The translations under genes were made by a program, and so were the position numbers. A DNA stretch of 64,000 bases, from NCBI GenBank assembly GCA_964620365.1, contig CAZUIH010000002.1, positions 1,598 to 65,597 on the forward strand. Reading direction: 5' to 3'. The notes beneath the pieces were generated by a model. That model had not been told where the DNA came from, made no database searches, and saw only the letters and a list, made by a program, of their open reading frames with translations. The DNA is from an uncultured Desulfobacterales bacterium. Its GTDB lineage: Bacteria; Desulfobacterota; Dissulfuribacteria; Dissulfuribacterales; S140-46. Each line of letters opens with the position of its first letter. Positions within the stretch are counted from its first letter, which is position 1. Below are positions 3,065 through 59,245 of this stretch, in pieces.

Positions 3065-3173
3065 GCGATACCTCTTTCTGGCAAGGTTATGAATTTAAAA
3101 CAAACAATTGAAGTACAAGAAGTAGGACTACTTCATGCCTCCCGCCTCGCATCTTCGGCGAACTAACCGACTC

Positions 3174-3186
3174 TATAATCCGGTGG
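3174..3186. repeat. solo copy of the family-1 terminal 12-mer (TATAATCCGGTGG)
   Basis: Matches the ATAATCCGGGTT end of the repeat family with 2 mismatches. It lies about 110 nt upstream of ATG 3064. Confidence 0.35.
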
Positions 3187-5958: not shown

Positions 5959-5981
5959 ATCTGCTCTCCAGCCTTTCTCAT

Positions 5982-6734
5982 TTAGCTTTCTGGTCGTACC
6001 ATGATTTTCTGGGCTAAACCAAGTCCAACGGCCAGCCTTGAACCCTTCACACTCAAAATCATAGGACCTGATTTATTCAATACCTCCACTTCGTCTCCGA
6101 CCACAAGGCCCATGTCCTGAAGCCTTCCGCGGACACTCTTTCCACCTGAGAAACTGACTATCTTGACCTTTTCACCTACCGCAGCCATGGACAGAGGCAT
6201 TGCTGAAACCTCTTTTTTCCTGCAACTCGAACAAAGTCCCAGCACAGTCAGCTTATGAAGTACAGGTTCAAATCCATGTTGCCTGGCAGCTCGCTTGGTC
6301 AACTCTCCGATATCGGATTCATTGAATTCCACAATCTTTCCACATCCTGTACAAAGCAGGTGATCATGATCACCTCCAAGATGAAGGTGCTCATACCAGG
6401 CCCCTGATCCGTTCAGCTGAGTCCGTTGCGCGATACCGTATCGGCAAAGGACCTCAAGGACGTCCCTGACCGTATCCAGGTCCACGGAATGACCGGCCTC
6501 AGCAAGCTTTTCCTGTATGAACTCAGGGGAAATATGCCCTTCGATGCCCAAAAAACAGTCAAGCACCAAATTACCATTTTCAGGCAAGACCTCGCCCGTC
6601 TGAGCCAACAACCTGTGAAAATCGTCCTTTTCCCGCTGATGAAGAGAATCAACTTCATCTTGGGTGCATGAGATGTCAACTGACTCACTCCCCTTACAAC
6701 AATCGTTCTCTTTTTTTCTCCTTCGGAACCACAT
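5982..6734 (-). CDS. Fur-family regulator fused to a C-terminal FeoA domain
   Basis: Fur-type metal and Zn sites (HLHLGGDHDHLLCTGCGKIVEF, GLCSSCRKK). These are followed by a FeoA-like SH3 segment (VGEKVKIVSFSGGKSVRGRLQDMGLVVGDEVEVLNKSGPMILSVKGSRLAVGLGLAQKIMV). Confidence 0.75.
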   Translation of the reverse strand: MWFRRRKKENDCCKGSESVDISCTQDEVDSLHQREKDDFHRLLAQTGEVLPENGNLVLDCFLGIEGHISPEFIQEKLAEAGHSVDLDTVRDVLEVLCRYGIAQRTQLNGSGAWYEHLHLGGDHDHLLCTGCGKIVEFNESDIGELTKRAARQHGFEPVLHKLTVLGLCSSCRKKEVSAMPLSMAAVGEKVKIVSFSGGKSVRGRLQDMGLVVGDEVEVLNKSGPMILSVKGSRLAVGLGLAQKIMVRPES

Positions 6735-6956: not shown

Positions 6957-7027
6957 AACCGGGATTACGCACTTAACATGCTGCAGAAATTATTTTTTAA
7001 TAAAACAAGCGAGTAAATGATAGAGGA
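6957..7027. repeat. family-1 repeat, copy D (left end plus internal block; right end missing)
   Basis: AACCGGGATTACGCACTTAAC, then TTATTTTTTAATAAAACAAGCGAGTAAATGATAGAG. The latter aligns with the internal block of copy C. Confidence 0.6.
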
Positions 7028-8198: not shown

Positions 8199-8353
8199 AA
8201 CCCGAATTACGCACTTCAACTATCCAAGGAATATTTTTTCTTATTAAAATCATTAAATTAACAGCAGGTTTTCTGTGAAAAATCTTCACCCAAAAGGTGC
8301 AACAAGTTATGTCCGGATTTCCTTGCAAACTTATCAACTGCATAATCCGGGTT
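8199..8353. repeat. family-1 repeat, copy A (155 bp)
   Basis: Left end AACCCGAATTACGCACTTCAAC, right end ATAATCCGGGTT. These form inverted termini. Confidence 0.65.
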
Positions 8354-12017: not shown

Positions 12018-12141
12018 GACCCGATTTATACACTTCAATCACCGAATCTCATGCGTATTCGGCCAGTTGAAAAACCAAGCCACACGGACATGCCCACGGA
12101 CTCAAATCCTAGGCAGTCCTGGCACAGGCATAATCCGGGTT
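12018..12141. repeat. family-1 repeat, copy B (124 bp, internally replaced)
   Basis: Left end GACCCGATTTATACACTTCAATC, right end ATAATCCGGGTT. Carries an internal CCGAAT/ATTCGG hairpin. Ends 49 nt upstream of ATG 11969. Confidence 0.6.
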
Positions 12142-12296
12142 CACATCTGTATGGTTTTAAAAACCAGGCTGTAAACATGCCGACGACCAAAAGGTGACCT
12201 CCAAAAAGCTAAATCTTAGAGGTCCCAATAAGAGACAACACCCAAAGAGCGTCATCGAAAATCCACCTGTGGTCAGGATCGAAGCAGTAGACATAT

Positions 12297-12737
12297 TCAA
12301 TTGTCTCCGCTTCTTTTGAGTAAAAAATGGACACTCTCTTCAGGCAACTTCAGCTGCCTTGCGATTTCCGTAGTCGAGGCACCTGGATTTTCCTTGATAA
12401 AATGTTCACACTCGGCTCGCACCATATCCAGCCAATCCTGGAACAAGACCACAAGTTCCTCCGAGGTTTCGGACGAAAGCTCATGGAGTATTCCCATTGC
12501 CCCGTAAAGATGATGACACATGTTTTGTGGATCGACACCTTCATCCATGCATTTGGCAATTCAGAGCTGAACCATACTGCCGATCTTGTCTTTTCCTGTT
12601 TGCCCCACCATCTCCACTACAAAGCTTCTTTTTTCTTCTTCAGAAAGAATGGAAAAGATCTCTTTGGCCAGATGGAGTAATAGATCCTTGCCCTCTTCCA
12701 AGGTCAATGACCTGATAATGTCACCCCATTTATCCAT
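12297..12737 (-). CDS. small helical protein with C-terminal HTH-like segment, candidate selenoprotein (UGA codon 59, U-x-x-x-C)
   Basis: ATG 12737 overlaps the arsR stop (TAATG). The frame is identical to track ORF 12297..12548 (189 nt = 63 codons upstream). The single TGA is at 12563..12561, in GSMVQL-U-IAKCMDEG. There is no SD in front of the internal ATG 12548. Confidence 0.5.
12528..12547 (-). other. candidate SECIS-like hairpin for the 12297..12737 gene
   Basis: mRNA sense UGGAU-GA-AGGUG-UCG-AUCCA: 5 bp outer stem plus 2 inner pairs, with an AGGUG apical loop. The stem starts 13 nt after the UGA and GGU lies about 22 nt after it. Confidence 0.4.
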
Positions 12738-13111
12738 TATTCCTCTCCTTTCGTTTGCTCTTGCTCCTGGATTATTCTCTTCACTTCAGCCACGAGAGCT
12801 GATTCGTCCAGGTCTGGATTTATTTCAGCGACCGCCCTTCCAAGAAATTTCAAAAGTCCTTTTGAGGCCAACCGGTAGTAGATAAATGGTCCTCTTCGTT
12901 CACTGACCAAGATATTCGCGTACCTGAATTCCTTTAGATGATGAGACACAAGGGGCTGAGACAATCCAAGACGATTGACTATCTCTGTCACAGAAAGAAA
13001 ACCACATTTCTCCAACGCGATACAAAGGATAATTTTTAATCGATTTTCATCGGATAGCGACTTGAAAAAATGCGCAAGCTCCTTGATAACGATTTTATTT
13101 GACCAGCCCAT
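12737..13111 (-). CDS. ArsR/SmtB-family transcriptional regulator
   Basis: wHTH segment LSVTEIVNRLGLSQPLVSHHLKEFRYANILVSERRGPFIYYRL; 124 aa. Confidence 0.85.
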   Translation of the reverse strand: MGWSNKIVIKELAHFFKSLSDENRLKIILCIALEKCGFLSVTEIVNRLGLSQPLVSHHLKEFRYANILVSERRGPFIYYRLASKGLLKFLGRAVAEINPDLDESALVAEVKRIIQEQEQTKGEE

Positions 13112-13270: not shown

Positions 13271-13527
13271 GAATCCGGAGTATGCACGTAAAATGCCGAA
13301 AAATGATTTTTTATTTATAAAACAAGCGAGTTACTGTTCAATAATAGAGAAAAACATTTCCACAAATGGAGCATCAACGTCACGCTACTTTTTTGGCATT
13401 TAAAGCCGCAGCGGGCTGCCGACTTTATCGGATCTGCCGCGTTGTCAGAGACTTGAAGTAGAAGAGTATGTATGCGTGTCTGCCGTCTTGCAACTTCGAC
13501 AAACTCGGCAGCTACATAATCCGGGTT
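13271..13527. repeat. family-1 repeat, copy C (257 bp, longest)
   Basis: Left end GAATCCGGAGTATGCACG, right end ATAATCCGGGTT. The right approximately 135 nt align with copy E. The internal block GAAAAATGATTTTTTATTTATAAAACAAGCGAGT aligns with copies D and E. Confidence 0.65.
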
Positions 13528-13573: not shown

Positions 13574-14029
13574 ATGAACAAGAAATCTGAACTCCAGGTG
13601 TTCCGGGAATACCTGCAAAAACATAAGCTTAGATATACCAGGGAACGTGAACAGATCATAAAGGAAATCTTCTCAACCCATGACCATTTCGATGTTGAGG
13701 CCATATATTTATCCATGAGGCAGAAAGGAATCCAGGTATCAAAGGCCTCTATCTACCGGCTGATTCCCTTGTTGATCGAAACTGGACTCATACAGGAAGT
13801 CTACTATGAAGATGGCCACATGCACTATGAACATGTGTATGGCCATGAACATCATTGTCATCTACGATGTACCAGGTGTAGAAAAATCGAAGAGTTCGTT
13901 GATCGCAGACTCCAAGAGATAGAAAAAGACCTGGCTGAAAAGTTTGGTTATGAAATAATAGATCGAAAGCTTGAAGTAAAAGGTCTATGTCCTGAATGCA
14001 GGGAAAAGGTTAAAAACAAAAACAGCTAG
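13574..14029 (+). CDS. Fur-family metalloregulator (Fur/Zur/PerR type not resolved)
   Basis: HEHHCHLRCTRCRKIEEF and C-terminal CPECREK zinc-site motifs; 151 aa. Confidence 0.85.
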   Translation: MNKKSELQVFREYLQKHKLRYTREREQIIKEIFSTHDHFDVEAIYLSMRQKGIQVSKASIYRLIPLLIETGLIQEVYYEDGHMHYEHVYGHEHHCHLRCTRCRKIEEFVDRRLQEIEKDLAEKFGYEIIDRKLEVKGLCPECREKVKNKNS

Positions 14030-27519: not shown

Positions 27520-28446
27520 TTACATACTCTTCCAGATGGCCTTCAACTCATTAACCATCTTCAAATCATCCCGGACGGATCTCCCCCTTACTGTCAAATA
27601 ACCGCCTATTAGCATGGCGTCCGCCCCTGCCATGAAGGCCAATGTCTGAAAGTCTGCCAAAGCTGTTTCACGGCCACCGGCAATCCTGATCGGTTTGTCC
27701 TGGAGTATTATCCTGAATAGAGATATTGTCCTCAATATCTCCGGGATGGACAGGGGATTTTCTTTTTCAAGGGGTGTCCCTGGAATCGGCACCAATATAT
27801 TGATAGGAACAGAATCCACGTCAAAATATGCCAGGGTCTCTGCCATCAGTACGCGCTCTTCTTCAGACTCGCCTATACCTATGATCCCCCCGGAACAAAC
27901 CTCCAGCCCTGCCCTCTTGGCCGATTCCAGAGTTGCCAGACGTTCTTCATAGGTATGCGTGGTGACTACCTTGGGGAAGAAATCCCTGGAAGTTTCGAGA
28001 TTATGGTGATACCTTGAAAGTCCGGCATCCTTCAATATCTTAAGGGCATCTTCACCTGCAATCCCGAAAGAAGCACATACCTTTATTTGTACTCTGTCTC
28101 TTATTGCCTCTATATATGGGGCAAGCCTTTCCGCGTCTTTCGCCTCTATTCCACGACCGCTTGCCACCATGCTGAACCTGCTTGCCCCGCAGGCCTTCGC
28201 CTCCCTGGCCTTTTCCACCACTTCATCCAACGGTCTCAATGGATAAACCGGGGTGTCGGTCTTGTAACGGACAGATTGCGCACAGAAGCTGCAATCTTCT
28301 GAACATCCTCCTGACCTCACATTCATTATTGAGCAAAGGGAAAAGGCGTCCTTCCTGAATTGCAACTTTATGGACAGGGCCTCGGCCATCAGCTCACCAA
28401 GGCCCAACTTCATATATTTCTTTATTCTATCAGATAACCTTTCCAT
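27520..28446 (-). CDS. bioB: biotin synthase
   Basis: Radical SAM CSEDCSFC motif; 308 aa; last gene of the bio operon. Confidence 0.9.
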   Translation of the reverse strand: MERLSDRIKKYMKLGLGELMAEALSIKLQFRKDAFSLCSIMNVRSGGCSEDCSFCAQSVRYKTDTPVYPLRPLDEVVEKAREAKACGASRFSMVASGRGIEAKDAERLAPYIEAIRDRVQIKVCASFGIAGEDALKILKDAGLSRYHHNLETSRDFFPKVVTTHTYEERLATLESAKRAGLEVCSGGIIGIGESEEERVLMAETLAYFDVDSVPINILVPIPGTPLEKENPLSIPEILRTISLFRIILQDKPIRIAGGRETALADFQTLAFMAGADAMLIGGYLTVRGRSVRDDLKMVNELKAIWKSM

Positions 28447-28454
28447 GCCACCTT

Positions 28455-29819
28455 TTACACTTGCGAATCAAGGAGCGCACTTGAAATGGAGCTGCGGGTA
28501 CGATCGATTATATCTTCAATCTGGTCGACCGTGGTACACAAAGGCAGAAAAAGATATGTGACATTTCCCAAGGGCCTCAAGATCACTCCATTTTTAAGAC
28601 CTTCCAGATAAACCCTCCAGCCAGCACGATACTCAAAGGAATATGGTTCCCTGGTGGATCTATCCCTTACCAGTTCGAATCCAGCTACCATTCCGATGCA
28701 TCTTACATCACCTACACAGGAAAGTTCGCCGATATCCCTGGCACCTTTTTCAAGGGCGGCAACCTTTTCACCAAGTCCTTCCATAACCCTTTCCTTCTCA
28801 AAGACCTCCATTGATCCCAAAGCGGCCGCGCATGCCAGCGGATTTCCCGTGAAGGTGTGCCCATGGAAAAAGGTCCTGCCTTCCGAATAATCTCCATAGA
28901 AGGCATTGAAGATCTCATCTGTGGTGACCGTTGCCGCCATGGGGAGATATCCGCCAGTAAGGCCCTTTGAAAGACAGATAAAATCGGGCACTACTCCGGT
29001 CTGTTCCAGGGCAAACATGGTTCCCGTTCTTCCAAAGCCTGTGGCCACCTCGTCAAAGATCAGGTGTATAGAGTAAGGCCTGATGAGGGCCGCCAGCCTC
29101 TCAAGATATTTCGCGGGGTAGACGATCATACCCCCTGCCCCCTGAAGAAGTGGCTCCACTATTACCGCGGCAATCTTATCGTGCCCGTCTTTCAACAATG
29201 CTTCCAAGGGATCCAGACACTCGACTGAACAACCATCACTCTTTTGATCCATAGGACAGCGGTAACAGTATGGCGAGGGTATCCTGTAAGATTCAAAGGT
29301 CAGGGAATCAAAAGGCCCCTTGAAGTCAGGCACGCCTCCAAGGCTCATGGCCCCTATGGTATCTCCATGATATCCGCGCTCAAGGGAAACTATCTTTTCT
29401 CTCTTCTTCTCTCCAACCAGCTTCCAGTACTGAACAGACATCTTCACTGCCACTTCGCAGGCAGTGGAGCCATTGTCTGAATAAAATACCCGTGACAGCT
29501 TGGTTGGCAAAAGCTTTACAAGTTTTTCCGCCAGGAAGACACCTGGTTCGTGAAGCGTGTTTGCAAAGTGTACCTGTTCAAGATGGTCCAGTTGTTTTTT
29601 TATGGCATTCTTTATTACGGGATGATTGTGTCCATGGAGGATACACCACCAAGAAGAGATGGTATCGTAATAGCGGGTTCCATCCATATCAAACAAGAAA
29701 ACCCCTTCACCACGCTCAACACATAGAGGGTCGCTTTCCTCATAGTCCTTCATCTGCGTGTATGGATGCCACAATATCTGTCTGTCCAGCTGGAGAATTC
29801 TTTCTTTTCTTTCGTTCAT
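28455..29819 (-). CDS. bioA: adenosylmethionine-8-amino-7-oxononanoate aminotransferase
   Basis: Class III aminotransferase with DEVATGFGRTG and the SKGLTGGYLP lysine region; 454 aa. Confidence 0.9.
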   Translation of the reverse strand: MNERKERILQLDRQILWHPYTQMKDYEESDPLCVERGEGVFLFDMDGTRYYDTISSWWCILHGHNHPVIKNAIKKQLDHLEQVHFANTLHEPGVFLAEKLVKLLPTKLSRVFYSDNGSTACEVAVKMSVQYWKLVGEKKREKIVSLERGYHGDTIGAMSLGGVPDFKGPFDSLTFESYRIPSPYCYRCPMDQKSDGCSVECLDPLEALLKDGHDKIAAVIVEPLLQGAGGMIVYPAKYLERLAALIRPYSIHLIFDEVATGFGRTGTMFALEQTGVVPDFICLSKGLTGGYLPMAATVTTDEIFNAFYGDYSEGRTFFHGHTFTGNPLACAAALGSMEVFEKERVMEGLGEKVAALEKGARDIGELSCVGDVRCIGMVAGFELVRDRSTREPYSFEYRAGWRVYLEGLKNGVILRPLGNVTYLFLPLCTTVDQIEDIIDRTRSSISSALLDSQV

Positions 29820-29923
29820 ATCTAATACCTAATAAGTAATAAAGAGACAGCCGTAATAACCGTGCATATATTTCAGCCCATAAAGATACTCGGCTTTACC
29901 TGTTTCTTCCACTTAAGGAAACC

Positions 29924-30619
29924 TTAAGACCGGGAGAACTTTATATGGGAAAGAAGCTCGGATGCGAATGGCTCTACCACGGGACATGCCTCGTGGACTT
30001 CTTTTCTATGCGGGATAATCCCAAAAACCCTTATTCCGGAGACCTCTTCGATGGTTCTCTTGTTGTCGTTAATGATATCCGGATCATCCTGTTGCGTAGT
30101 GTTGAGAATAACCCCCAGGACATCTATATCCCTTCGCAAAAGGGCCTCTATGGTGAGCAGGGTATGATTCAGGGTTCCAAGGCCGCTTCTTGCCACGATC
30201 AGAGTTGGGATATCCAGTTCAGATACAAGGTCTGCCAACAGAACTTCCCTGGAAATTGGAACCAACACCCCGCCTACTCCTTCAACTATAAGGAGTTCGT
30301 GTCTTTTGCGCATGGACAGGAACACCGCCCTTAATCTCTCCATGTCGACTCTTTTGCCCTCTAACTCGGCGGCCAGATGCGGAGAAGCTGGAAATTCAAA
30401 ACAATAGGGACTTTCCATGGAGCCCGGAATGGCTATCCCCTCAATCCCGGCCTTTTCATAGATGAACTGACAATCTTCAGATAATGTGCTGTTACCTGTG
30501 CTCACCCACTTCTGCACCCCGACATCTATCCCCTTGGCCTTCCAAATCCTCGCCAGGCATGCGGTTACAAAAGTCTTTCCTACTCCTGTGTCAGTACCTG
30601 CAATAAAAATAACCATCAC
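29924..30619 (-). CDS. bioD: dethiobiotin synthase
   Basis: P-loop GTDTGVGKT; 231 aa. Confidence 0.85.
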   Translation of the reverse strand: MMVIFIAGTDTGVGKTFVTACLARIWKAKGIDVGVQKWVSTGNSTLSEDCQFIYEKAGIEGIAIPGSMESPYCFEFPASPHLAAELEGKRVDMERLRAVFLSMRKRHELLIVEGVGGVLVPISREVLLADLVSELDIPTLIVARSGLGTLNHTLLTIEALLRRDIDVLGVILNTTQQDDPDIINDNKRTIEEVSGIRVFGIIPHRKEVHEACPVVEPFASELLSHIKFSRS

Positions 30620-31398
30620 TGTTTCCTGCCTAAAATGAAAAACACCTCATAGGTTGCAACAATACCACCATAGGCATTCGTGTATCTTTGTTCAATTTTC
30701 CTGAGGCCTGCCCTGCTTCTAAAAAGAACCCTTTTTTTACCCTTCGGGGCCACCCCTGTCTTTTTAAGGCTTGTTAAAAAACCCTTAAGATCTGGATAAG
30801 TTCTCTTCACAACTCGTTTCTCCAGCCCGATGTCTGGAAAGGAGGCAGAGAATGTCTCAACCAGAGCCTGTTCATCTGGAAACGTATGGGGAGGAAGCAA
30901 TGCGTCCTGTCCTGCCACTTCTTCCAAAACATTTTCCAATTCAAAAAGAGAGTTGGAACCAAAAAGTGCGCATGCTATCACTCCTCCCGGTCTCAGCATC
31001 TGTCTGCACCTGTGCACCATGCCATTCAAGTCCGAAAACCAGTGAAACACCCCGCTACTGGCTATAAGATCTAGGCAAGGCACATCTTCGCAAGTCAGTT
31101 CCTCCGCGTCCGCTTCAAGACATGTCAAGTTGTGGTATCCGGCCATAAGGCTTTTTGTCCTTGATATCATCTCGTGAACCATGTCCACCGCTATTATGCG
31201 GGATGGTTTGAAGATGTCGGCAAGCATCCTTGTAAAGGTTCCTGTGCCACAGCCTATGTCCATGATGATGTCATATCTTTGCCTTGGAATAGACGCCAGA
31301 AGGTGCCTGGCCACTTCAGACTGGACATCGGAATATGAATCGTAAGTATCGGCAGCCCTGGAAAATGACCTTTTTATATTGGCCTTGTTAATCATCAA
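30616..31398 (-). CDS. bioC: malonyl-ACP O-methyltransferase
   Basis: SAM motif DIGCGTG. Position between the bioH-like gene and bioD, with 4 nt and 11 nt overlaps. Confidence 0.8.
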   Translation of the reverse strand: MMINKANIKRSFSRAADTYDSYSDVQSEVARHLLASIPRQRYDIIMDIGCGTGTFTRMLADIFKPSRIIAVDMVHEMISRTKSLMAGYHNLTCLEADAEELTCEDVPCLDLIASSGVFHWFSDLNGMVHRCRQMLRPGGVIACALFGSNSLFELENVLEEVAGQDALLPPHTFPDEQALVETFSASFPDIGLEKRVVKRTYPDLKGFLTSLKKTGVAPKGKKRVLFRSRAGLRKIEQRYTNAYGGIVATYEVFFILGRKQ

Positions 31399-32056
31399 AC
31401 TTCCTTTTGAACTCCGGAGACAGAAAGGGCAGATGCCCTGCGCCTGGGATTATTTCAGGCCTGAGTCCTGGTACCAGCCTGGGCAGATCTTCTTTTGGCG
31501 CAATCATGTCCTTTTCCCCATGAAATATCCTTACTGGAATTTGCTGGCATACAGATAGATCCAATTCCCTTTTTTCCAGGAGTCCCAGGCCTTGTTCGAG
31601 CAACCTTTGACTCCACTTGGAGATAAACGCTGTCTGAAAGCGCATCCGGAAATATTCTAGCCCCTTCCTATTTCCCCAGAAACAGAGCCTGTAAAAATAG
31701 GTAAGGGCTGCTGTCTTGTCCCTTTCAAGCCTTTTCCTTAACTCATCCATTTCACTACCTTGATATCGGGATCGCACAGAAACAAGAAAAAGGCTCCTCG
31801 TCCTGTCAGGATACATCTTAAGGAAATCGAGCACGTAGAAGGCGCCGAGAGACCAGCCCAACAAGAAAACAGACGGCACTCCAAGCGAATCCAGGAAAGA
31901 TGCAAGATCTTTGCATGTGTAACATAAAATGGGGTCTTCAGGGATAATGAAATCATAAGGGATATCCATGTCCAGAAAAATATCCCCGAGAAAACCCCAG
32001 CCAGGAGCCAAAAAAATGGGATTTTTCTTACCCCGATCTATCAGTCTAAAGGACAC
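31388..32056 (-). CDS. alpha/beta hydrolase, candidate pimeloyl-ACP methyl ester esterase (BioH-like role)
   Basis: Nucleophile elbow GWSLG, a late Asp (KDMIAP) and His (GAGHLPF). Embedded between bioF and bioC. Confidence 0.65.
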   Translation of the reverse strand: MSFRLIDRGKKNPIFLAPGWGFLGDIFLDMDIPYDFIIPEDPILCYTCKDLASFLDSLGVPSVFLLGWSLGAFYVLDFLKMYPDRTRSLFLVSVRSRYQGSEMDELRKRLERDKTAALTYFYRLCFWGNRKGLEYFRMRFQTAFISKWSQRLLEQGLGLLEKRELDLSVCQQIPVRIFHGEKDMIAPKEDLPRLVPGLRPEIIPGAGHLPFLSPEFKRKFDD

Positions 32057-33191
32057 TGCAAAATGCCTCTACAAGACGAGATATATCCTCAGCACTATGA
32101 TGAGAAGTCACGGACAACCTGATTCTTGCAGTACCACGGGGAACCGTCGGCGGTCTTATCGCACGGACGTAGAACCCTTTTTCAGACAGCACCTTTGCCA
32201 CTTTTAAAGCCAGGCTGCTATCACCTAAATATACCGGGACAATATAGGAACGTGATGTCATGTCAATATCCAGCCGCTCCATCAACGCCTTTCTCAGGGA
32301 TGAAGCCCTTTGAAAGAGTATCTTCCTGCGATAAGAATCCCGCTGCACCACCTTGATACTCTCTATATTGCCTCCCACAACTGAGGGGGGAAGGGCGGTG
32401 GAAAATATGAACGAGCGGGCCCGGTTGATCAAATAATCCCTGATCTTGCTGGACACTGCGGCAAAGGCTCCGTACCCCCCCAGCGCCTTACCAAAGGTGC
32501 CAACCATGACATCAACACTACGGGCGAGGCTGCGGGTAACAAGCCCTTCTCCCCTTCTCCCGTAACATCCGACTGCATGGGCCTCATCAATCATCAGGAC
32601 AGTTCCGTAACGCTCTTTCAATTGTATAAGGCCCTTTATTGGAGCGATATCTCCATCCATGCTGTAAAGACTTTCTGCCACTATCAACTTTTTTCCCTTT
32701 TTCGCCCTATATTTTTTCAGTAGATCCTCAAGATGATTTAAATCGTTATGGGCAAACCTGAAAAAACGTGCGCCGGAAAGGCGAATCCCGTCAATTATGC
32801 TGGCATGGACATATCGATCCGCAAAAATATAATCTCCTCGTCCACAAATGGCTGATATAATGCCCACATTTGCCAGGTAACCGCTGCCAAAAAGCAACGC
32901 GTTCTTAGTACCCTTGAAGTCAGCAATGTACCTTTCCAGCTCCTGATGTAAGACAAGATCTCCGCTCATGAGCCGGGCTGCTCTGCTACCCACACCCCAA
33001 GCCCTTGCAGCCTCAATTGACGCGGAGATCACGGATTCATGGTCGGAAAGGCCAAGATAATCATTAGATGAAAAATCGACAAGGTTACGGCCTTTAATGA
33101 CAACAGCCATTTTGTCTCTTTTTTCTACCGTGGACAGGGTACGGACAAGGGCATCCCTTTCAATTGTGTATAACTCTTTAGAGGTATCCAT
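32046..33191 (-). CDS. bioF: 8-amino-7-oxononanoate synthase
   Basis: PLP-dependent acyltransferase with the GTFGKALG lysine motif; 381 aa. Confidence 0.9.
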   Translation of the reverse strand: MDTSKELYTIERDALVRTLSTVEKRDKMAVVIKGRNLVDFSSNDYLGLSDHESVISASIEAARAWGVGSRAARLMSGDLVLHQELERYIADFKGTKNALLFGSGYLANVGIISAICGRGDYIFADRYVHASIIDGIRLSGARFFRFAHNDLNHLEDLLKKYRAKKGKKLIVAESLYSMDGDIAPIKGLIQLKERYGTVLMIDEAHAVGCYGRRGEGLVTRSLARSVDVMVGTFGKALGGYGAFAAVSSKIRDYLINRARSFIFSTALPPSVVGGNIESIKVVQRDSYRRKILFQRASSLRKALMERLDIDMTSRSYIVPVYLGDSSLALKVAKVLSEKGFYVRAIRPPTVPRGTARIRLSVTSHHSAEDISRLVEAFCSVL

Positions 33192-51351: not shown

Positions 51352-51912
51352 ATGTTGAAAAATACTCTTGTGCTTGGCGGATCAAGAAGTGGCAAAAGCA
51401 GCTTTGCCTTGAGATCAGGCGAGCGTTTTTTAAAAAACTTTTCAATGAAAGACGCAAAGGGACTCTATATTGCCACGGCCCAGCCTCTTGATCCCGAAAT
51501 GAAAGACAGAATCATAAAACACAAAAGGGAAAGGGGCCCTTTGTGGGAAACTGTAGAGGAGCCTCTGGATGTCCCGGGTATCATAAACCGGAGAGCGGAT
51601 TCCGTCGGTGTCATACTGGTAGATTGCATGACCCTTTGGCTGACAAACATCCTGGGCAGCGCCAAGGAGCAGATGGATAACATGACAAACTCCCTATGTA
51701 GGGTAGTATCGGAATCAAAGACCCCTGTCATACTAGTATCCAATGAATTAGGTCTAGGTTTGGTCCCGCCTACACCTCTGGGAAGGGAATTTCGGGACTA
51801 TGCCGGTCTTTTGAACCAAAGACTGGCCCAGACATGTGACAGGGTGATCATGGTCATAGCTGGGATTCCTATGGCAATTAAAGGAGAGATCGAGTCATGG
51901 GAGATGAATTGA
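51352..51912 (+). CDS. cobU: adenosylcobinamide kinase / adenosylcobinamide-phosphate guanylyltransferase
   Basis: P-loop [11 protein letters not shown]; 186 aa. Overlaps cobT by 16 nt. Confidence 0.85.
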
Positions 51913-52964
51913 ACAGGGTAATTGAACAGATAAAGCCTGTAACATACGAAAAAGAAAAGGATATCCAGGCCCACTTGGATAACCTTACCAAACCCAGGGG
52001 AAGTCTGGGAAGATTGGAAGAGCTTGCCAAAAAGTATGCGCTTATCCATGATACCATCCAGCCCGAACTTCCTGAAAAAAGTGTGTATGTCTTTGCCGGG
52101 GACCACGGGGTAACCGAGGAGGGAATAAGTGCCTTTCCCAAGGAAGTGACCTTCCAGATGGTCCACAATTTCCTCCAGGGAGGCGCTGGCATAAATGTGT
52201 TGGCAAGGCATGTAGGCGCCCAAGTCCATGTCGTGGACATTGGAGTGGATTATGACTTTCCGGATATTCCGAACCTCATAAGCAAAAAGGTGGCCCATGG
52301 GACCAAAAACATGGCAAAAGGTCCAGCTATGACGAGGGAGGAGACCCTTAGGGCCATACTTACAGGGATTGAACTTGCTACAACAGGTATAAGGCAGGGG
52401 AAAACACTTATTGCCACAGGTGAAATGGGAATAGGCAATACCACACCGGCAAGTGCCATTACGGCTGTACTTTGCGGCAAAAGTGTCCAGGAGGTAACCG
52501 GGAGAGGTACAGGAATCGGCGATGATGCCCTCAACCACAAAATAAGGGTGATTGAAAAGGCAATTGATGTGAATCGCCCAGACCCAAATGATCCTCTGGA
52601 CACCCTGTCCAAGGTTGGCGGATTGGAGATAGCGGGCATATGCGGTCTAGTGTTGGGTTGTGCAGCAAACAGGACACCAGTAGTAACTGACGGCTTCATT
52701 TCTACGGCAGGCGCACTCGTGGCATACCAGTTAAATCCCGCAGTGAAAGATTATCTCTTCGCCTCACATCAATCAATGGAACAGGGGCATCGTATACAGC
52801 TGGAACACATGAGATTAAAGCCCGTGCTAGACCTGGATCTCAGGCTTGGTGAGGGAACGGGTGCTGCCTTAGCCATGAATCTAATAGAAGCCGGAATAAA
52901 AATTTATTCTGAAATGGCCACCTTTGAGGCTGCAAGTGTAGCTGAAGGCAATGAAGTACTTTAG
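51897..52964 (+). CDS. cobT: nicotinate-nucleotide--dimethylbenzimidazole phosphoribosyltransferase
   Basis: GEMGIGNTT and LRLGEGTGA motifs; 355 aa. Confidence 0.9.
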
Positions 52965-53580: not shown

Positions 53581-55677
53581 ATGAGAACAAGATCGGTTAC
53601 TCTATTTTGCAATATTGTGATCTTTCTCACAATCCATTTATTCCTTTTCACAGTAAATGCCAACGCGAACACTGCAACAACTAGTGTCTCTCTTGACGCC
53701 TACACAGCCACATACCTTGAACTAATAGTTGAGCCAGATGAAGTTGCAATGACTGTTCAGATTACGCAAGGATCAGGAGATATTGATCTGTATCTAAAAA
53801 AAGGGTCTCCTGCCATGGGCAGCAGCACAAGTGAAATATCGGCGAATGCCGATTTTGCATCCGAGGGAATATCCTGGAATGAAACTATAAATGTCGATCA
53901 GTCGACAAGCCCTGCCTTATCATCTGGTAGCTGGTACGTCACTCTGGTCAATCTCAACGATTATGCTGTCTCTGTAACCGTCCAGGTAACCAGTGAAACC
54001 CAGAGTCCGGATGGACAAACGGGAGGTTCCTCAACCGCCAGCAACCTTCATTTCAAGCCACAAACCGGCCTTTGGTATAACAAGTCACAACCCGGACACG
54101 GAATCGACTTTGAGATGTCAGGGAACAATCTTACTGCCGTATGGTACACATATAATACAGACAGCACCCCCACTTGGTATCTCGCTACGGCACCTCTTAC
54201 CGGCGGTACTTGGACCGCTACCCTGAACAAATATCATTGGGACGGATCCTCAGCAACCCCCACCCCAGTCGGTACAGTAACAGTAAACTTCTCCACCCGT
54301 ACCCAGGCAACCTTCAGCTGGACCCTAAATGGACAAAGCGGCAGCGAACCCATTGAGCGTTTTGTACTAAATGATCAGATCCCCCCATCCAATTACACCG
54401 GCCTTTGGTATAACAGCGCAGAGCCTGGTTACGGATATTCAATAGATACCCAAGGGAATGCAGAGGCGATAGTAGCCTATTTTTATGACAATCAAGGTCA
54501 ACCCAGGTGGGCATTAACCTCTTCAACCAACTCAGACATGACTTCGCCTCAGACCCTACCGGTCAGTGTCTTTTTCGGACCGTGTCCCAATTGTGCCGGT
54601 TCCAATTTCTACTCAACCTCCGGAGGGACCATTTACAGAGAATATTTAGATGCCACTCACGCCACTATAGCGGCCAATATAGTCCTGCCGGATCCAATGA
54701 ACGCTTCGTGGAACAAGCCCTCGGCTCAGAACTCCTTGCTAAGTTCACAGGTCGACAACAAAAGGCTTGAGCTGGAAATGGCGATAGACTCGGTCATAGG
54801 ATACCTGTCGGAAGGAGATGACACACTTGAAGGATTCAGCGATATCTTCAGCTCACTGGACATCGAGTCTTCAACATCCACATGCCCAGTCATAACAACC
54901 AGCAACAGCGGCACCTCCTTGTCTGATCCAATGAGGGTAGACCTGACAGCCGATTTTGGGTCAGGCTGCACGGACCAAAAGGGCAACACCTGGAGCGGAA
55001 AAATTATAGCGACCGTAGATTTAAATCTGGGAAGCGCTATACACGCTGATTTCACTATTAATATAGATAATCTCCATAAAAATGGTGAATTGGTCGCTCA
55101 GGGCTCCGCCTCTGGCAATTTGGACCTCTCACTGTCAGAATCTTCATCACTTGCAAATGGTAGCGGAACGCTGACGCTGAATCTTACCGGTCCGGAAAAC
55201 AAGCCTGTTTCTGGCACCATTACAATTGCCATCAATAACATAGACATAGGTTCGCTTACAGACGAATCCGGCTCCTTTTCCCTGGCTTCGTTGCTCAACG
55301 CTATCGGCACAAACGGAGCCATTACCATCACCTTTAATAACGTAATTTATGGAGAAACAAACATTTCCGGAACCATTACCGGACAGGCAACAGCGATAGG
55401 AAATGGACAAGTTGATTTAAACCTTCAGACGACAGCAGGTCCTATAACCGGCAGTATCACCGTACGACAGGGCAGTACGAATACGGACTATCTCCTCAAT
55501 ACCGTGGGTACGGCTAATATACTGGGCTACAATGTCACTTTTAATAACATTGAATTCAATTCGGACATATGTACCAAATCCCCTGTTGGAGGAGAGCTTA
55601 TCCTTACCAAGGGTTCCAATAGTGGAAAATTCACATTTGACAGTTCATGTTTGGGATATAGCTACGAACCGCTCTAA
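53581..55677 (+). CDS. large secreted protein: PPC-like N-domain, duplicated GLWYN domain, Ser/Thr/Gly/Asn-rich C-terminal half
   Basis: GAGGAGGAGGAGG SD and a signal peptide. GSGDIDLYLKKGSP is typical of pre-peptidase C-terminal domains. There are two copies of a TGLWYN..PG.G domain. Confidence 0.6.
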   Translation: MRTRSVTLFCNIVIFLTIHLFLFTVNANANTATTSVSLDAYTATYLELIVEPDEVAMTVQITQGSGDIDLYLKKGSPAMGSSTSEISANADFASEGISWNETINVDQSTSPALSSGSWYVTLVNLNDYAVSVTVQVTSETQSPDGQTGGSSTASNLHFKPQTGLWYNKSQPGHGIDFEMSGNNLTAVWYTYNTDSTPTWYLATAPLTGGTWTATLNKYHWDGSSATPTPVGTVTVNFSTRTQATFSWTLNGQSGSEPIERFVLNDQIPPSNYTGLWYNSAEPGYGYSIDTQGNAEAIVAYFYDNQGQPRWALTSSTNSDMTSPQTLPVSVFFGPCPNCAGSNFYSTSGGTIYREYLDATHATIAANIVLPDPMNASWNKPSAQNSLLSSQVDNKRLELEMAIDSVIGYLSEGDDTLEGFSDIFSSLDIESSTSTCPVITTSNSGTSLSDPMRVDLTADFGSGCTDQKGNTWSGKIIATVDLNLGSAIHADFTINIDNLHKNGELVAQGSASGNLDLSLSESSSLANGSGTLTLNLTGPENKPVSGTITIAINNIDIGSLTDESGSFSLASLLNAIGTNGAITITFNNVIYGETNISGTITGQATAIGNGQVDLNLQTTAGPITGSITVRQGSTNTDYLLNTVGTANILGYNVTFNNIEFNSDICTKSPVGGELILTKGSNSGKFTFDSSCLGYSYEPL

Positions 55678-57225: not shown

Positions 57226-58044
57226 CTATATCTTGTTTATCCTGGCGCTTTTCGGAAGCTCTCCCCATGTGGTGCATGCATATGCCGAGTGGTTGTGGAT
57301 AGACTCAAAATTCTCGGCCTCCACGGTGAACCAGGTCACCTGTTCCAATCTCCTGAGTCCCTGGCACACACTTCTTACCAGGTCTTCCACAAACATCGGA
57401 CTGTCATATGCCTTCTCTGTCACGAATTTTTCGTCGGGCCTTTTTAGTACTGAATAGACTTCTGAAGATGCCGCCTGTTCTACCTGGCTTATAACGTCTT
57501 CCAGCCAAAGAAAACCATCGAACCTCACCCAAACCCTGACTTCGCCACGTTGATTGTGTGCACCGTAATCGGATATCTCCTTTGAACAAGGACACACAGT
57601 AGTCACTGGCACGCGTGCCACCAAGACCATGTCCAGCCGGTCAGTCATGGTGCCATAAAGGCCGCATCCATACTCCATAAGCCCTGGCGTGTTGGTAATA
57701 GGGGCCTTTTTCTCAATAAAATAGGAGAAGTCGACCTCCAGATGGGCCTCCTCTGCATCAAGACGATTCTTCATCTCGTTGAGAATTGAGGCAAAGGTCC
57801 TTACGTTTATCTCACGCCGGTATTGGTTGAGTATCTCAACAAACCGGCTCATGTGAGTCCCCTTGAAATGCTGGGGAAGATTTACATACATGTTGATGCT
57901 GGCAACTGTCTGCTGTGTCGTGTTCTCCTTGTCAAGCACCGTAATTGGATAGCGGATATTTTTTATCCCCACCCGGTCAAGGGGTATACGTCTGTTGTCA
58001 GGAAGACTCTGGACATCAGCAAGAAGAGAAAATCTCTCGTTCAT
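57226..58044 (-). CDS. folE2: GTP cyclohydrolase IB (FolE2/MptA family)
   Basis: 272 aa. The N-terminal DVQSLPDNRRIPLDRVGIKNIRYPI and the CPCS region match FolE2 as recalled. Confidence 0.8.
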   Translation of the reverse strand: MNERFSLLADVQSLPDNRRIPLDRVGIKNIRYPITVLDKENTTQQTVASINMYVNLPQHFKGTHMSRFVEILNQYRREINVRTFASILNEMKNRLDAEEAHLEVDFSYFIEKKAPITNTPGLMEYGCGLYGTMTDRLDMVLVARVPVTTVCPCSKEISDYGAHNQRGEVRVWVRFDGFLWLEDVISQVEQAASSEVYSVLKRPDEKFVTEKAYDSPMFVEDLVRSVCQGLRRLEQVTWFTVEAENFESIHNHSAYACTTWGELPKSARINKI

Positions 58045-58793
58045 CCTAACTGCTCCAAGCGATCTAGTAATTTGCGCGCAGCTTCCTTCATAGTGGAATC
58101 AGACTCCTCTATAGAAACAGAATTACGTTCAGCCCTCTTTACACCTGGAGAAAGGGGAAACCATCCCAGGACCTTCTCATCCATAATCTTCTCTATGTAT
58201 TTCAAGTCCTCTTCGTCAGACACATGGTTTGCCACAATTGACAAATTTTTAAGCCCAAGATCCTGTGACAATTTTTTTATTTGCTGGGCTGTCTCCAGGC
58301 TGCCCCTGTAGGGCTGAACCACGACCAGCAGGTGGTCTACACTTGCTATGGTGCCTCTGCCCAAGTGTTCCACCCCGGCCTCCATATCGAGCACTATATC
58401 TTCGTTGGGAGAGAGAATAAGGGTATTGATTAGATTTCTGAGCACCGTATTTTCCGCACAGGCGCATCCTCCGCCACCCTTTTGAATGGCACCTACCACC
58501 ATTAATTTGATATCGCCCTTCCTACGCATGAATCTATTGGGAAGATCATCCACCCTGGGATTCATGTTGTAAAAGGCCCCTTCCCTCTGGGACCTCTCCT
58601 GGATAAGCTCCGTCATATCAGCTATTGGTATTATTTCATTTGCATCAGGGAAACCAAGTACCCTGGCGAGATGCGGACTTGGATCCGAATCTATGGCCAG
58701 TACCTTTCTTCCCCTTTCGACCAGGGCCTGGATCAAAAAAGCGCTTACTGTGGTTTTGCCGACGCCACCTTTACCGCTTATTGCTATCTTCAC
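58041..58793 (-). CDS. CooC-type (MinD/Mrp-class) metal-insertion P-loop ATPase
   Basis: GTG start after GGAGA. Deviant Walker A GKGGVGKTT and a CxC motif (GGGGCACAEN). Has a 4 nt ATGA overlap with folE2. Confidence 0.7.
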   Translation of the reverse strand: MKIAISGKGGVGKTTVSAFLIQALVERGRKVLAIDSDPSPHLARVLGFPDANEIIPIADMTELIQERSQREGAFYNMNPRVDDLPNRFMRRKGDIKLMVVGAIQKGGGGCACAENTVLRNLINTLILSPNEDIVLDMEAGVEHLGRGTIASVDHLLVVVQPYRGSLETAQQIKKLSQDLGLKNLSIVANHVSDEEDLKYIEKIMDEKVLGWFPLSPGVKRAERNSVSIEESDSTMKEAARKLLDRLEQLG

Positions 58794-58817
58794 GCCTTAT
58801 CTCCATTTCTATCTTTT

Positions 58818-59018
58818 AACCCGGATTATCCACTTCAACTGTCGAAAAATGATCTTTTATGCATCAACATCATGCCATGTTTTGGGCATTTTAGCCGCCA
58901 AGGACTGCCTATTTCCCGAATCTGTCTTGTTATCAGGCAGTTGAAGAATAATAATACGTCCACGTCTCTCTGACGCCCTTGCGGCTTCGACAAACGCAGC
59001 AACTTTATAATCCGGGTT
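58818..59018. repeat. family-1 repeat, copy E (201 bp, full length)
   Basis: Left end AACCCGGATTATCCACTTCAAC, right end ATAATCCGGGTT: a perfect 12 bp inverted terminal pair. Starts 25 nt upstream of the cooC-like GTG. Confidence 0.7.
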
Positions 59019-59245
59019 TAAACATTATCCTGAGTTTACTTATTATTAAACTAACAATCCAGGACAATATCTACGGATAAGACAAAAATAATACCAAAAG
59101 GTCATGGTCGTGCAAAATACTTTTCCAGGAAAACCACACGCAAACACCGTGACACGATGCCAGGACCAATGGATCATTTGAAATGACGCGTGGTTTTATG
59201 TTATTAAAAATGACAAATTACCAAAATGGCTGGAGGATTAATCTA

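What the first reader, a model, noticed from the sequence alone, without database searches (positions are those of the whole stretch)
57226..58793. CooC-type metallochaperone ATPase translationally coupled to GTP cyclohydrolase FolE2
The 250-aa P-loop protein has the deviant Walker A (GKGGVGKTT) and the CxC metal-binding motif (GCAC) that characterise CooC, the Ni-insertion ATPase of CO dehydrogenase. No CODH/ACS genes are nearby.

Instead its stop overlaps the folE2 start (ATGA). FolE2/MptA enzymes are the metal-promiscuous, zinc-independent GTP cyclohydrolases. In other bacteria they are linked by regulation or interaction to COG0523 GTPase metallochaperones under zinc limitation.

A CooC-class ATPase in that position would be a different, undescribed solution for metallating FolE2. 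A full-length family-1 repeat lies 25 nt upstream of the pair, which fits metal-responsive control.
Basis: inference. Interest (0 to 1): 0.55.

Follow-up and report, generated by a model that had tools for sequence, protein, structure and literature searches.

The report
Conserved cooC–folE2 two-gene operon
A nickel-chaperone-type ATPase (CooC family) and the GTP cyclohydrolase FolE2 form a tightly coupled gene pair conserved across one bacterial phylum. Whether the ATPase serves FolE2, or serves the CO dehydrogenase encoded elsewhere in these genomes, is still open.

Summary
On the minus strand, a 250-aa CooC-family ATPase (58793..58041) ends in an ATGA overlap with a canonical folE2 (58044..57226).

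The ATPase matches the Carboxydothermus CooC1 structure at E=1e-42, with the Walker A and CxC motifs aligned. FolE2 passes NCBI's equivalog cut-off.

The adjacency is strongly conserved:
- It occurs in 18 distinct loci with several different sets of flanking genes.
- The gap between the two genes is always -29 to +50 nt.
- The hosts span two classes of Thermodesulfobacteriota.
- These ATPases form their own orthogroup, marked by the motif DPSPHL.

I found no paper describing this pairing.

The claim that the ATPase is a FolE2 metallochaperone is not established. Every named host I could check in the literature uses the Wood-Ljungdahl pathway. In three host genomes, the 22 kb read around the CODH/ACS cluster contains no CooC at all. 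The folE2-linked gene is therefore the only CooC I saw that could insert nickel into CODH/ACS. It is 40-51% identical to CooCs that do sit in CODH/ACS clusters.

Best reading (about 0.45): it is the CODH/ACS maturase, fixed in an operon with the first gene of folate synthesis. FolE2 as sole or second client remains possible (about 0.35).

The upstream repeat is a species-specific MITE-like element. I found no evidence that it confers metal-responsive control.

The parts
58041..58793 (-). cooC-family P-loop ATPase gene. It is 250 aa with a GTG start, a deviant Walker A (GKGGVGKTT, residues 7-15), a Switch-I motif DPSPHL (residues 37-42) and a CxC motif (Cys110, Cys112).
   Evidence: ORF. The 3kje CooC1 match is E=1.3e-42 with CxC aligned. 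Pfam CbiA, AAA_31 and Fer4_NifH hit.
57226..58044 (-). folE2, encoding GTP cyclohydrolase IB (272 aa).
   Evidence: PF02649 at 2.4e-97. NF010200 FolE2 equivalog scores 293.6 bits against a cut-off of 215. Solved structures 2r5r (7.5e-88) and 3d2o (2.1e-69) match, with the CPCS, AHNQR and PDEK motifs retained.
58041..58044 (-). ATGA stop/start overlap between cooC and folE2, consistent with translational coupling.
   Evidence: Sequence. The same 4-nt overlap occurs in 5 other distinct loci, and the gap ranges from -29 to +50 nt across the loci measured.
58801..58804 (-). GGAG Shine-Dalgarno-like sequence, 7 nt upstream of the GTG start.
   Evidence: Read directly from the sequence.
58811..59025 (.). 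Its terminal inverted repeats are at 58811-58829 and 59007-59025. It fills most of the intergenic region upstream of cooC.
   Evidence: The inverted-repeat arms are 19 nt and 89% complementary. Other copies were found. Its RNA fold has z=-5.6. It is absent from every other locus fetched; the only other match is L001, the same organism's DNA.
59088..59116 (-). Sigma-70-like promoter match (TTTGCA-17-TATTAT with a TG extension), upstream of the repeat. If it is used, the repeat would lie in the 5' UTR.
   Evidence: This is a consensus scan only. It found 6 sites in the region against 3.6 expected, so the evidence is weak.

Best explanation
The ATPase is a genuine CooC-family, nickel-binding, ATP-driven metal insertase. 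Its main client is most likely the CODH/ACS encoded elsewhere in the genome. Its gene is fixed in a two-gene operon with folE2.

**Proposed mechanism.**
- Inferred from the CooC1 literature and structure: the ATP-bound ATPase dimerises, and the CxC motifs of the two subunits (Cys110, Cys112) hold one Ni(II) at the interface.
- The dimer docks on apo-CODH, and possibly on the ACS A-cluster as AcsF does. ATP hydrolysis releases the metal into the cluster.
- From established knowledge of the enzyme family: FolE2 converts GTP to dihydroneopterin triphosphate, the first step towards tetrahydrofolate. Tetrahydrofolate is the C1 carrier of the methyl branch of the Wood-Ljungdahl pathway.
- Inferred: one transcript with overlapping stop and start codons keeps the two 'support' functions of that pathway co-expressed.

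**Shown here.** Family membership, motifs, conserved coupling, a separate orthogroup, and the absence of CooC from the 22 kb read around three host acs clusters.

**Inferred.** The identity of the client, and the reason for the linkage.
For: - **CooC identity.** The 3kje match is E=1.3e-42 with Walker A and CxC aligned. G7-T15, C110, C112, D136, G140 and E142 are conserved at 90% or more in the FolE2-linked, stand-alone and CODH-linked groups alike.
- **Small distance to true CODH/ACS-linked CooCs.** The ATPase is 40-51% identical to ATPases that sit beside CooS and/or AcsB (L009, L011-L013, L114, L127, L129, L165).
- **Hosts use the Wood-Ljungdahl pathway.** This holds for T. ammonigenes, D. 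thermomarina, T. dismutans, Caldimicrobium and Thermodesulfatator (PMC12827605 text and supplement; PMC7463578; PMC4911364).
- **The host acs clusters lack CooC.** In the same assemblies that carry the pair, 22 kb around acsB holds CODH, AcsB, AcsC, AcsE and an MTHFR-CdhD fusion. No CooC homologue is found there: tblastn gives nothing below E=0.2 with six different CooC queries. So the folE2-linked gene is the only CooC I saw in these genomes.
- **CooC genes elsewhere sit among C1/folate genes.** In L133, FTHFS lies directly downstream on the same strand (the family was identified). A preprint reports that 93% of clade A CODH operons hold one-carbon genes and 62% hold CooC (10.1101/2025.09.14.676152).
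- **The neighbourhood is cofactor supply.** CobU and CobT lie 4-6 kb away in the window and next to the pair in D. thermomarina.
Against: - The pair stays adjacent and tightly coupled in all 18 distinct loci while the flanking genes change. Selection that strong is more typical of proteins that work on each other than of two members of a broad pathway.
- FolE2-linked ATPases are a distinct orthogroup with an invariant His41 in Switch I, where CODH-linked ones have Asn. That could reflect a different client or metal.
- I could not scan whole genomes. A second CooC outside the 22 kb acs windows is not excluded.
- Some CODHs mature without CooC.
Confidence: 0.45

Rival explanations
1. Dedicated FolE2 metallochaperone. 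The CooC-type ATPase dimer binds a thiophilic metal at its CxC site, such as Fe(II), Ni(II), Zn(II) or Co(II). It docks on apo-FolE2 and uses ATP hydrolysis to load the Cys/His/Glu site. CODH/ACS would mature without it.
For: - The adjacency is invariant, with gaps of -29 to +50 nt and frequent ATGA overlap, across two classes and several different flank sets.
- The ATPases form a separate orthogroup (NJ bootstrap 69%, subclades 86% and 95%) with its own invariant Switch-I motif, DPSPHL (26 of 26).
- No CODH-linked CooC locus has a FolE2 neighbour.
- FolE2 is a metalloenzyme, and its gene co-localises with another chaperone class, COG0523, in other phyla (PMC2770081).
Against: - This would leave Wood-Ljungdahl autotrophs with no CooC that I could see for CODH/ACS.
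- This FolE2 is canonical and closely related to Nitrosomonas and Neisseria FolE2. From general knowledge, no CooC partner has been described for those.
- FolE2's recalled metal preference is Mn(II) or Fe(II). This is from memory of Sankaran et al. 2009 and was not checked here. A four-cysteine site suits Mn poorly.
- No CooC-FolE2 fusion appears among the 240 listed homologues, all about 250 aa.
- The sister stand-alone clade shares the His-type Switch I but has no FolE2 neighbour.
Confidence: 0.2
2. Dual-client insertase. One CooC serves both CODH/ACS and FolE2 in these lineages.
For: This reconciles the two strongest observations:
- the acs clusters, as far as read, have no CooC;
- cooC-folE2 coupling is invariant.

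Hosts live in sulfidic, metal-poor hydrothermal settings, where assisted metallation of several enzymes is plausible (habitats described in PMC7463578 and PMC4911364).
Against: - There is no precedent for a CooC with a non-CODH/ACS client.
- The two candidate clients have unrelated folds and unrelated metal sites.
- There is no direct evidence.
Confidence: 0.15
3. The adjacency has no functional meaning. It would be an ancestral accident, kept because overlapping reading frames make the pair hard to separate.
For: - All FolE2-linked loci fall in one phylum, and ATPase and FolE2 divergence rise together. This is compatible with a single origin and vertical inheritance.
- A nested or sister clade has lost the linkage.
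Against: - The flanks have been reshuffled repeatedly while the pair survived, at ATPase identities down to 43-51%.
- In several loci the genes do not overlap (gaps of +6 to +50 nt), yet they remain adjacent.
Confidence: 0.1
4. The upstream repeat is a metal-responsive operator or promoter module that places the pair in a Fur, Zur or ArsR-type regulon.
For: - Other copies in the window lie next to a Fur-family gene (13574-14029), a Fur-FeoA fusion gene (5982-6734) and an ArsR-family gene (12737-13111).
- Each end carries a near-palindrome, AAYCCGGRTT (read from the sequence).
Against: - There are only about 6 copies, and 5 of them cluster within 3-14 kb.
- The architecture is that of a MITE: 19-nt terminal inverted repeats, variable length of 155-256 nt, and a long hairpin with z=-5.6.
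- It is absent upstream of the pair in all other species.
- No recalled NikR, Fur or Zur consensus is found upstream of the pair in 16 loci.
- There is no Rfam match.
Confidence: 0.1

Closest known systems
CooC1 of Carboxydothermus hydrogenoformans (PDB 3kje/3kjg/3kjh/3kji), the ATP-dependent Ni-insertion factor of CO dehydrogenase
   Same: - The alignment is full-length, E=1.3e-42.
- It has the same deviant Walker A, GKGGVGKTT.
- The CxC motif sits at the same aligned position.
- Switch II is DM(E/G)AG(V/I)EHL.
- Both are about 250 aa.
   Different: - Switch I is DPSPHL here and DPDSCL in CooC1.
- The gene is not next to any CODH. It is always next to folE2.
AcsF and the cluster-encoded CooC of acetyl-CoA synthase gene clusters (for example L011, L114, L127, L129 here)
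   Same: - Same family, 40-51% identity.
- The hosts of the window's orthogroup also run the Wood-Ljungdahl pathway.
   Different: - Those genes lie inside acs clusters and carry Asn at Switch-I position 41 (DPASNL, DPDANL).
- The window's type lies outside the acs clusters, and those clusters, as far as read, have no CooC.
COG0523 (YciC/ZagA-type) G3E GTPases co-localised with folE2 in Zur regulons
   Same: A nucleotide-dependent putative metallochaperone gene sits beside folE2 (PMC2770081).
   Different: - It belongs to a different P-loop class (G3E GTPase rather than MinD/SIMIBI ATPase). There is no cobW (PF02492) hit for the window protein.
- yciC is usually regulated independently of folE2, whereas this pair is translationally coupled.
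- From memory, not checked here: B. subtilis ZagA supports the Zn-dependent FolE, not FolE2.
FolE2 / GTP cyclohydrolase IB of Neisseria gonorrhoeae (3d2o) and Nitrosomonas europaea (2r5r)
   Same: - Full-length matches, E=2.1e-69 and 7.5e-88.
- The CPCS, AHNQR, PDEK and ENFESIHNHSAYA motifs are retained.
   Different: - Cys190 (N. gonorrhoeae numbering) is Ser here.
- The gene is preceded by a CooC-type ATPase.

Membership tests
CooC family (CO dehydrogenase Ni-insertion ATPase; MinD/SIMIBI class) | MinD-type P-loop with a deviant Walker A, GKGGxGK[ST], including the signature lysine | tested here: met
   Residues 7-15 are GKGGVGKTT. They align to CooC1 residues 7-15. The motif is invariant in the orthogroup.
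CooC family (CO dehydrogenase Ni-insertion ATPase; MinD/SIMIBI class) | CxC metal-binding motif at the dimer-interface position of CooC1 (Cys112, Cys114) | tested here: met
   GGGGCACAEN aligns with KGGSQCYCREN of 3kje. C110 and C112 are conserved at 90% or more in the FolE2-linked, stand-alone and CODH-linked groups.
CooC family (CO dehydrogenase Ni-insertion ATPase; MinD/SIMIBI class) | Closest characterised relative is a CooC rather than MinD, ParA, NifH or ArsA | tested here: met
   CooC1 matches at E=1.3e-42. MinD is next at 1.6e-13 and ArsA at 2.6e-12. No NCBIfam model reaches its cut-off.
CooC family (CO dehydrogenase Ni-insertion ATPase; MinD/SIMIBI class) | Genetic association with CODH or ACS genes | tested here: not met
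   No CooS or AcsB lies in the 64 kb window or within 4-10 kb of any FolE2-linked relative. The hosts do encode CODH/ACS elsewhere.
CooC family (CO dehydrogenase Ni-insertion ATPase; MinD/SIMIBI class) | ATP-dependent Ni binding and insertion into the CODH C-cluster | not testable with these tools
   This needs biochemistry.
FolE2 / GTP cyclohydrolase IB (PF02649, COG1469) | Full-length match above the curated equivalog threshold | tested here: met
   PF02649 scores 326 bits over profile positions 1-260 of 260. NF010200 scores 293.6 bits against a cut-off of 215. The MptA model scores 143 against 220, so MptA is not the better assignment.
FolE2 / GTP cyclohydrolase IB (PF02649, COG1469) | Active-site metal ligands (Cys147, His159, Glu201 in N. 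gonorrhoeae numbering; the ligand identities are recalled from the literature) | tested here: met
   Aligned residues in the CPCS, AHNQR and RPDEK motifs are identical to those of 3d2o.
FolE2 / GTP cyclohydrolase IB (PF02649, COG1469) | GTP to dihydroneopterin triphosphate activity | not testable with these tools
   This needs an enzyme assay or complementation of a folE mutant.
COG0523 / G3E metallochaperone GTPases | cobW-type G3E GTPase domain with a CxCC motif | tested here: not met
   PF02492 does not appear among the 14 Pfam hits. MeaB gives only a weak P-loop hit at 0.0029. The motif here is CxC in a MinD-type fold.
Miniature inverted-repeat element (for the upstream repeat) | Terminal inverted repeats, several dispersed non-coding copies of variable length, and no intact ORF | tested here: met
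   The terminal inverted repeats are 19 nt and 89% complementary. The core 12-mer has 5 exact and 16 near matches against 5.5 expected. All reading frames are broken. Target-site duplications and a partner transposase were not examined.

The most novel reading that the evidence does not exclude
FolE2 is a client, either sole or second, of a CooC-class ATPase. That would be the first client of the CooC family outside CODH/ACS. It would also be a MinD/SIMIBI-type solution to metallating GTP cyclohydrolase IB, parallel to the COG0523 GTPases that other phyla place beside folE2.
Probability: 0.35. Interest if true: 0.7.

Novelty: new member of a known kind. Interest (0 to 1): 0.42.

Why it matters
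CooC proteins are known only as maturases of CO dehydrogenase and acetyl-CoA synthase. How FolE2 obtains its metal in vivo is also unsettled.

A phylum-wide, translationally coupled cooC-folE2 operon gives a concrete, testable candidate for a new chaperone-client pair.

If the simpler reading holds, the finding still matters in two ways:
- It identifies where Wood-Ljungdahl Thermodesulfobacteriota keep the CooC that their acs clusters lack.
- It shows nickel insertion being co-expressed with folate precursor synthesis.

Either outcome would improve annotation. These proteins are currently labelled 'AAA family ATPase', 'P-loop NTPase', 'adenylyl-sulfate kinase' or 'cobyrinic acid a,c-diamide synthase'.

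Tried and rejected
- **A second 250/272-aa ORF pair at 5140-6734.** It looked like a duplicate but shows no similarity. Those ORFs are a Fur-FeoA fusion and a pyrroline-5-carboxylate reductase.
- **The genome-contig scan.** It was swamped by the generic Walker A pattern and returned no close relatives. It did yield CODH-linked and other CooCs that served as comparators. A truncated alignment without the P-loop fixed this for the metagenome scan.
- **The repeat as a small protein gene.** I rejected this because all frames are interrupted and the copies differ by indels.
- **A riboswitch or known RNA upstream.** There is none in Rfam at E<=1, apart from chance miRNA hits.
- **Recalled NikR, Fur and Zur consensus boxes upstream of the pair in 16 loci.** There is one weak NikR-like hit in one locus and nothing conserved.
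- **Searching genome papers for CooC counts.** The D. thermomarina supplement does not mention CooC, and the Thermosulfurimonas F29 and Dissulfuribacter papers have no supplements held. The Dissulfuribacter proteome lists one CooC, DITHS69_0575, with its genomic context unknown.
- **The P0201 (Thermodesulfatator indicus) look-up.** It was not on record.
- **The stand-alone sister clade.** I looked for a conserved co-directional partner and found none. Only divergent or convergent neighbours recur: Bax1-I, NamZ, T2SSE and FTHFS.
- **Clade-specific residues as a discriminator.** His41 is shared with the stand-alone clade. Only G164, R44, E131 and L179 are specific to the FolE2-linked group, which is not decisive.
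Full report
**1. What is in the sequence**

Two minus-strand ORFs occupy 57226-58793.

The upstream ORF (58793..58041) is 250 aa with a GTG start. A GGAG lies 7 nt upstream of it. The protein begins MKIAISGKGGVGKTT and contains GGGGCACAEN.

The downstream ORF (58044..57226) is 272 aa. Its ATG overlaps the upstream TGA as ATGA (58044..58041).

A second 250/272-aa ORF pair at 5140-6734 is a coincidence of lengths.

**2. Identity of the two proteins**

*The ATPase.*
- By far its best solved relative is CooC1 of Carboxydothermus hydrogenoformans (3kje), at E=1.3e-42 over residues 1-215.
- Walker A, Switch II and the CxC metal motif are in register.
- MinD follows at 1.6e-13 and ArsA at 2.6e-12.
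- Pfam sees only generic MinD/ParA-type domains, and no NCBIfam model reaches its cut-off.

*The second protein.*
- It is a canonical FolE2. PF02649 matches at 2.4e-97 over the whole profile.
- The NCBIfam FolE2 equivalog scores 293.6 bits against a cut-off of 215, while the MptA model stays below its cut-off.
- It matches the Nitrosomonas (2r5r, 7.5e-88) and Neisseria (3d2o, 2.1e-69) enzymes.
- The CPCS, AHNQR and PDEK motifs, which hold the recalled metal ligands, are unchanged.

**3. Is the adjacency conserved?**

Yes, strikingly.

- *Look-ups by exact protein.* The ATPase is followed by a PF02649 gene in Thermosulfuriphilus ammonigenes, Dissulfurirhabdus thermomarina, Thermosulfurimonas dismutans and two metagenome assemblies. 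There are several different sets of flanking genes.
- *The metagenome scan.* I used a P-loop-free alignment and then ran tblastn. Every locus whose ATPase is at least 59% identical to the window's has folE2 directly downstream. So do L094, L096, L137, L140, L143 and L144, at 43-53% identity.
- *The contrast.* None of the loci where the ATPase sits beside CooS or AcsB has a FolE2.
- *The gap.* Where it could be measured, the distance from the ATPase stop to the predicted folE2 start is -29 to +50 nt. The ATGA overlap recurs in five other distinct loci.
- *Fusions.* No fused CooC-FolE2 protein appeared among 240 listed homologues.

**4. Phylogenetic placement**

I built a neighbour-joining tree of 114 CooC-like sequences with 200 bootstraps (first pass).

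- It puts 17 of 18 FolE2-linked ATPases in one clade with 69% support. The clade also holds 8 named relatives whose genomic context was not read.
- That clade has a core subclade (86%). Its named members come from Thermosulfuriphilus, Dissulfurirhabdus and Dissulfurimicrobium, plus MAGs labelled Desulfobacteraceae and Nitrospiraceae.
- A second subclade (95%) comes from class Thermodesulfobacteria: Caldimicrobium, Thermosulfurimonas and Thermodesulfatator (names).

All 26 members carry the Switch-I motif DPSPHL. The other groups differ:

| Group | Motif | FolE2 neighbour |
|---|---|---|
| Stand-alone group, about 50% identical | DPSPHM | none |
| CODH/ACS-linked CooCs | DPASNL, DPDANL and similar | none |
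| CooC1 | DPDSCL | not read here |

The stand-alone group's recurrent neighbours are Bax1-I, NamZ, a T2SSE ATPase and, in seven loci, FTHFS.

The core catalytic and metal-binding residues are shared by all groups.

**5.

All named hosts that I could check in the literature are Wood-Ljungdahl organisms:
- PMC12827605 reports that 11 of 13 clade B species have the complete CODH/ACS gene set, and its supplement lists AcsB for T. ammonigenes, Caldimicrobium and Thermodesulfobacterium.
- D. thermomarina is covered in PMC7463578.
- T. dismutans is covered in PMC4911364.

I retrieved the AcsB of three hosts and read 22 kb around each gene, in the same assemblies that hold the cooC-folE2 pair. The clusters contain:
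- CODH
- a roughly 1020-aa protein
- ferredoxin and FlpD-type proteins
- DUF5981
- an MTHFR-CdhD fusion
- AcsB, AcsC and AcsE

They contain no CooC. tblastn with six CooC queries gives nothing better than E=0.2.

About 60% of CODH operons elsewhere carry a CooC (preprint 10.1101/2025.09.14.676152). So these autotrophs have an obvious unmet need for a CooC/AcsF-type nickel insertase. The folE2-linked gene is 40-51% identical to acs-linked CooCs, and it is the only candidate I saw.

I could not scan whole genomes. A further CooC elsewhere is not excluded.

**6. Weighing the explanations**

*For a direct CooC-FolE2 relationship.*
- The pair persists while its flanks are reshuffled.
- The coupling is tight.
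- The ATPases form a separate orthogroup.

*For the ordinary client.*
- The hosts' biology points to CODH/ACS.
- The acs clusters, as far as read, have no CooC.
- The sequence distance to true CODH/ACS CooCs is small.
- FolE2 enzymes of this type have no described CooC partner in other bacteria (general knowledge).
- CooC genes tend to sit with one-carbon genes (L133; preprint).
- The pair lies in a cofactor-supply neighbourhood: CobU and CobT in the window and in D. thermomarina.

*My estimates.*
- CODH/ACS maturase co-operonic with folE2: 0.45
- Dedicated FolE2 chaperone: 0.20
- Dual client: 0.15
- Meaningless ancestral adjacency: 0.10
- The remainder is unassigned.

**7. The upstream repeat**

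The element spans 58811-59025.
- It has 19-nt terminal inverted repeats, TTTAACCCGGATTAT...ATAATCCGGGTT.
- It folds into a long hairpin, z=-5.6.
- It has a full copy at 13272-13527, a short copy at 8199-8353, and partial copies near 3146, 6957 and 12101.
- It has no intact reading frame.

It is MITE-like.

Several copies lie beside metal-regulator genes: Fur at 13574-14029, a Fur-FeoA fusion at 5982-6734, and ArsR at 12737-13111. This is worth noting, but it rests on about six copies, five of them within 11 kb.

The element is absent from every other locus fetched; the only other match is L001, the same organism's DNA. No recalled NikR, Fur or Zur box is conserved upstream of the pair in 16 loci. 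Rfam finds nothing. 'Metal-responsive control' is therefore unsupported.

**8. Rest of the window**

The window also holds:
- an FtsK gene divergent from the pair, as in three relatives
- RNase G
- an Exo_endo_phos protein
- a 698-aa repeat protein with no Pfam hit
- CobU and CobT
- trehalose synthesis genes
- a biotin operon
- housekeeping genes

There are no CODH/ACS, nickel-transport or other folate genes.

**9. Novelty and verdict**

No paper in the library links CooC to FolE2 or to GTP cyclohydrolase. The only paper that mentions both uses CooC merely as an outgroup.

The proteins are members of known families. What is new is a conserved operon and a definable CooC orthogroup.

Its hypothesis survives its own adjacency test, but it faces a simpler and at least equally likely explanation.

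Noticed in passing
window 58811-59025, 13272-13527, 8199-8353, and partial copies near 3146-3186, 6957-7019 and 12101-12142: A MITE-like repeat family with 19-nt terminal inverted repeats (TTTAACCCGGATTAT...). Copies vary from 155 to 256 nt, and each end carries a near-palindrome, AAYCCGGRTT. Three copies lie beside Fur, Fur-FeoA and ArsR genes. The element is absent from every other locus fetched; the only other match is L001, the same organism's DNA.
   Followed up: partly
window 5982-6734 (-): A 250-aa protein that combines a Fur-family domain (PF01475) with a C-terminal FeoA domain (PF04023). This is an unusual regulator architecture. A partial copy of the repeat lies upstream.
   Followed up: no
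window 53581-55677 (+): A 698-aa predicted secreted protein with an N-terminal hydrophobic segment and no Pfam hit. It has an internal direct repeat (54064-54102 and 54397-54435, 'TGLWYN...PG.G') and is rich in Thr, Ser and Gly.
   Followed up: no
L169:4814-5578, and the equivalent genes in L170 and L171: In the acs clusters of T. ammonigenes, D. thermomarina and T. dismutans, the roughly 254-aa gene after the roughly 1020-aa gene contains an in-frame stop codon in L169. This may be selenocysteine, or a gene-calling quirk. The same clusters encode an MTHFR-CdhD fusion of 813-959 aa.
   Followed up: no
L005:1409-4284 and L006:6001-8883: In two Desulfobacterales MAGs, a CooC-like ATPase (44-46% identical, motif DPDANL) is directly followed by a 706-aa DEAD-box/DSHCT (Ski2-like) helicase. 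This is another CooC context away from CODH.
   Followed up: no
L095-L135 (for example L095:3914-4684): A large stand-alone CooC clade with the motif DPSPHM. It is about 50% identical to the window's protein and is close to the FolE2-linked group. Its recurrent neighbours are a divergent Bax1-I or NamZ gene and, in seven loci, FTHFS about 2.5 kb away. Its client is unknown.
   Followed up: partly
window 51352-52964 (+), and L085:7613-9521: CobU and CobT (cobalamin lower-ligand genes) lie 4-6 kb from the pair in the window and directly beside it in D. thermomarina. An FtsK gene divergent from the pair recurs in the window, L002, L085 and L087.
   Followed up: partly
window 27520-33191 (-): A complete-looking biotin operon: bioB, bioA, bioD, a bioC-type methyltransferase, an alpha/beta hydrolase, and bioF.
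   Followed up: no
protein lists: Public annotations of this orthogroup are inconsistent. They include 'AAA family ATPase', 'P-loop NTPase', 'adenylyl-sulfate kinase', 'cobyrinic acid a,c-diamide synthase', 'carbon monoxide dehydrogenase' and 'CO dehydrogenase maturation factor'.
   Followed up: no
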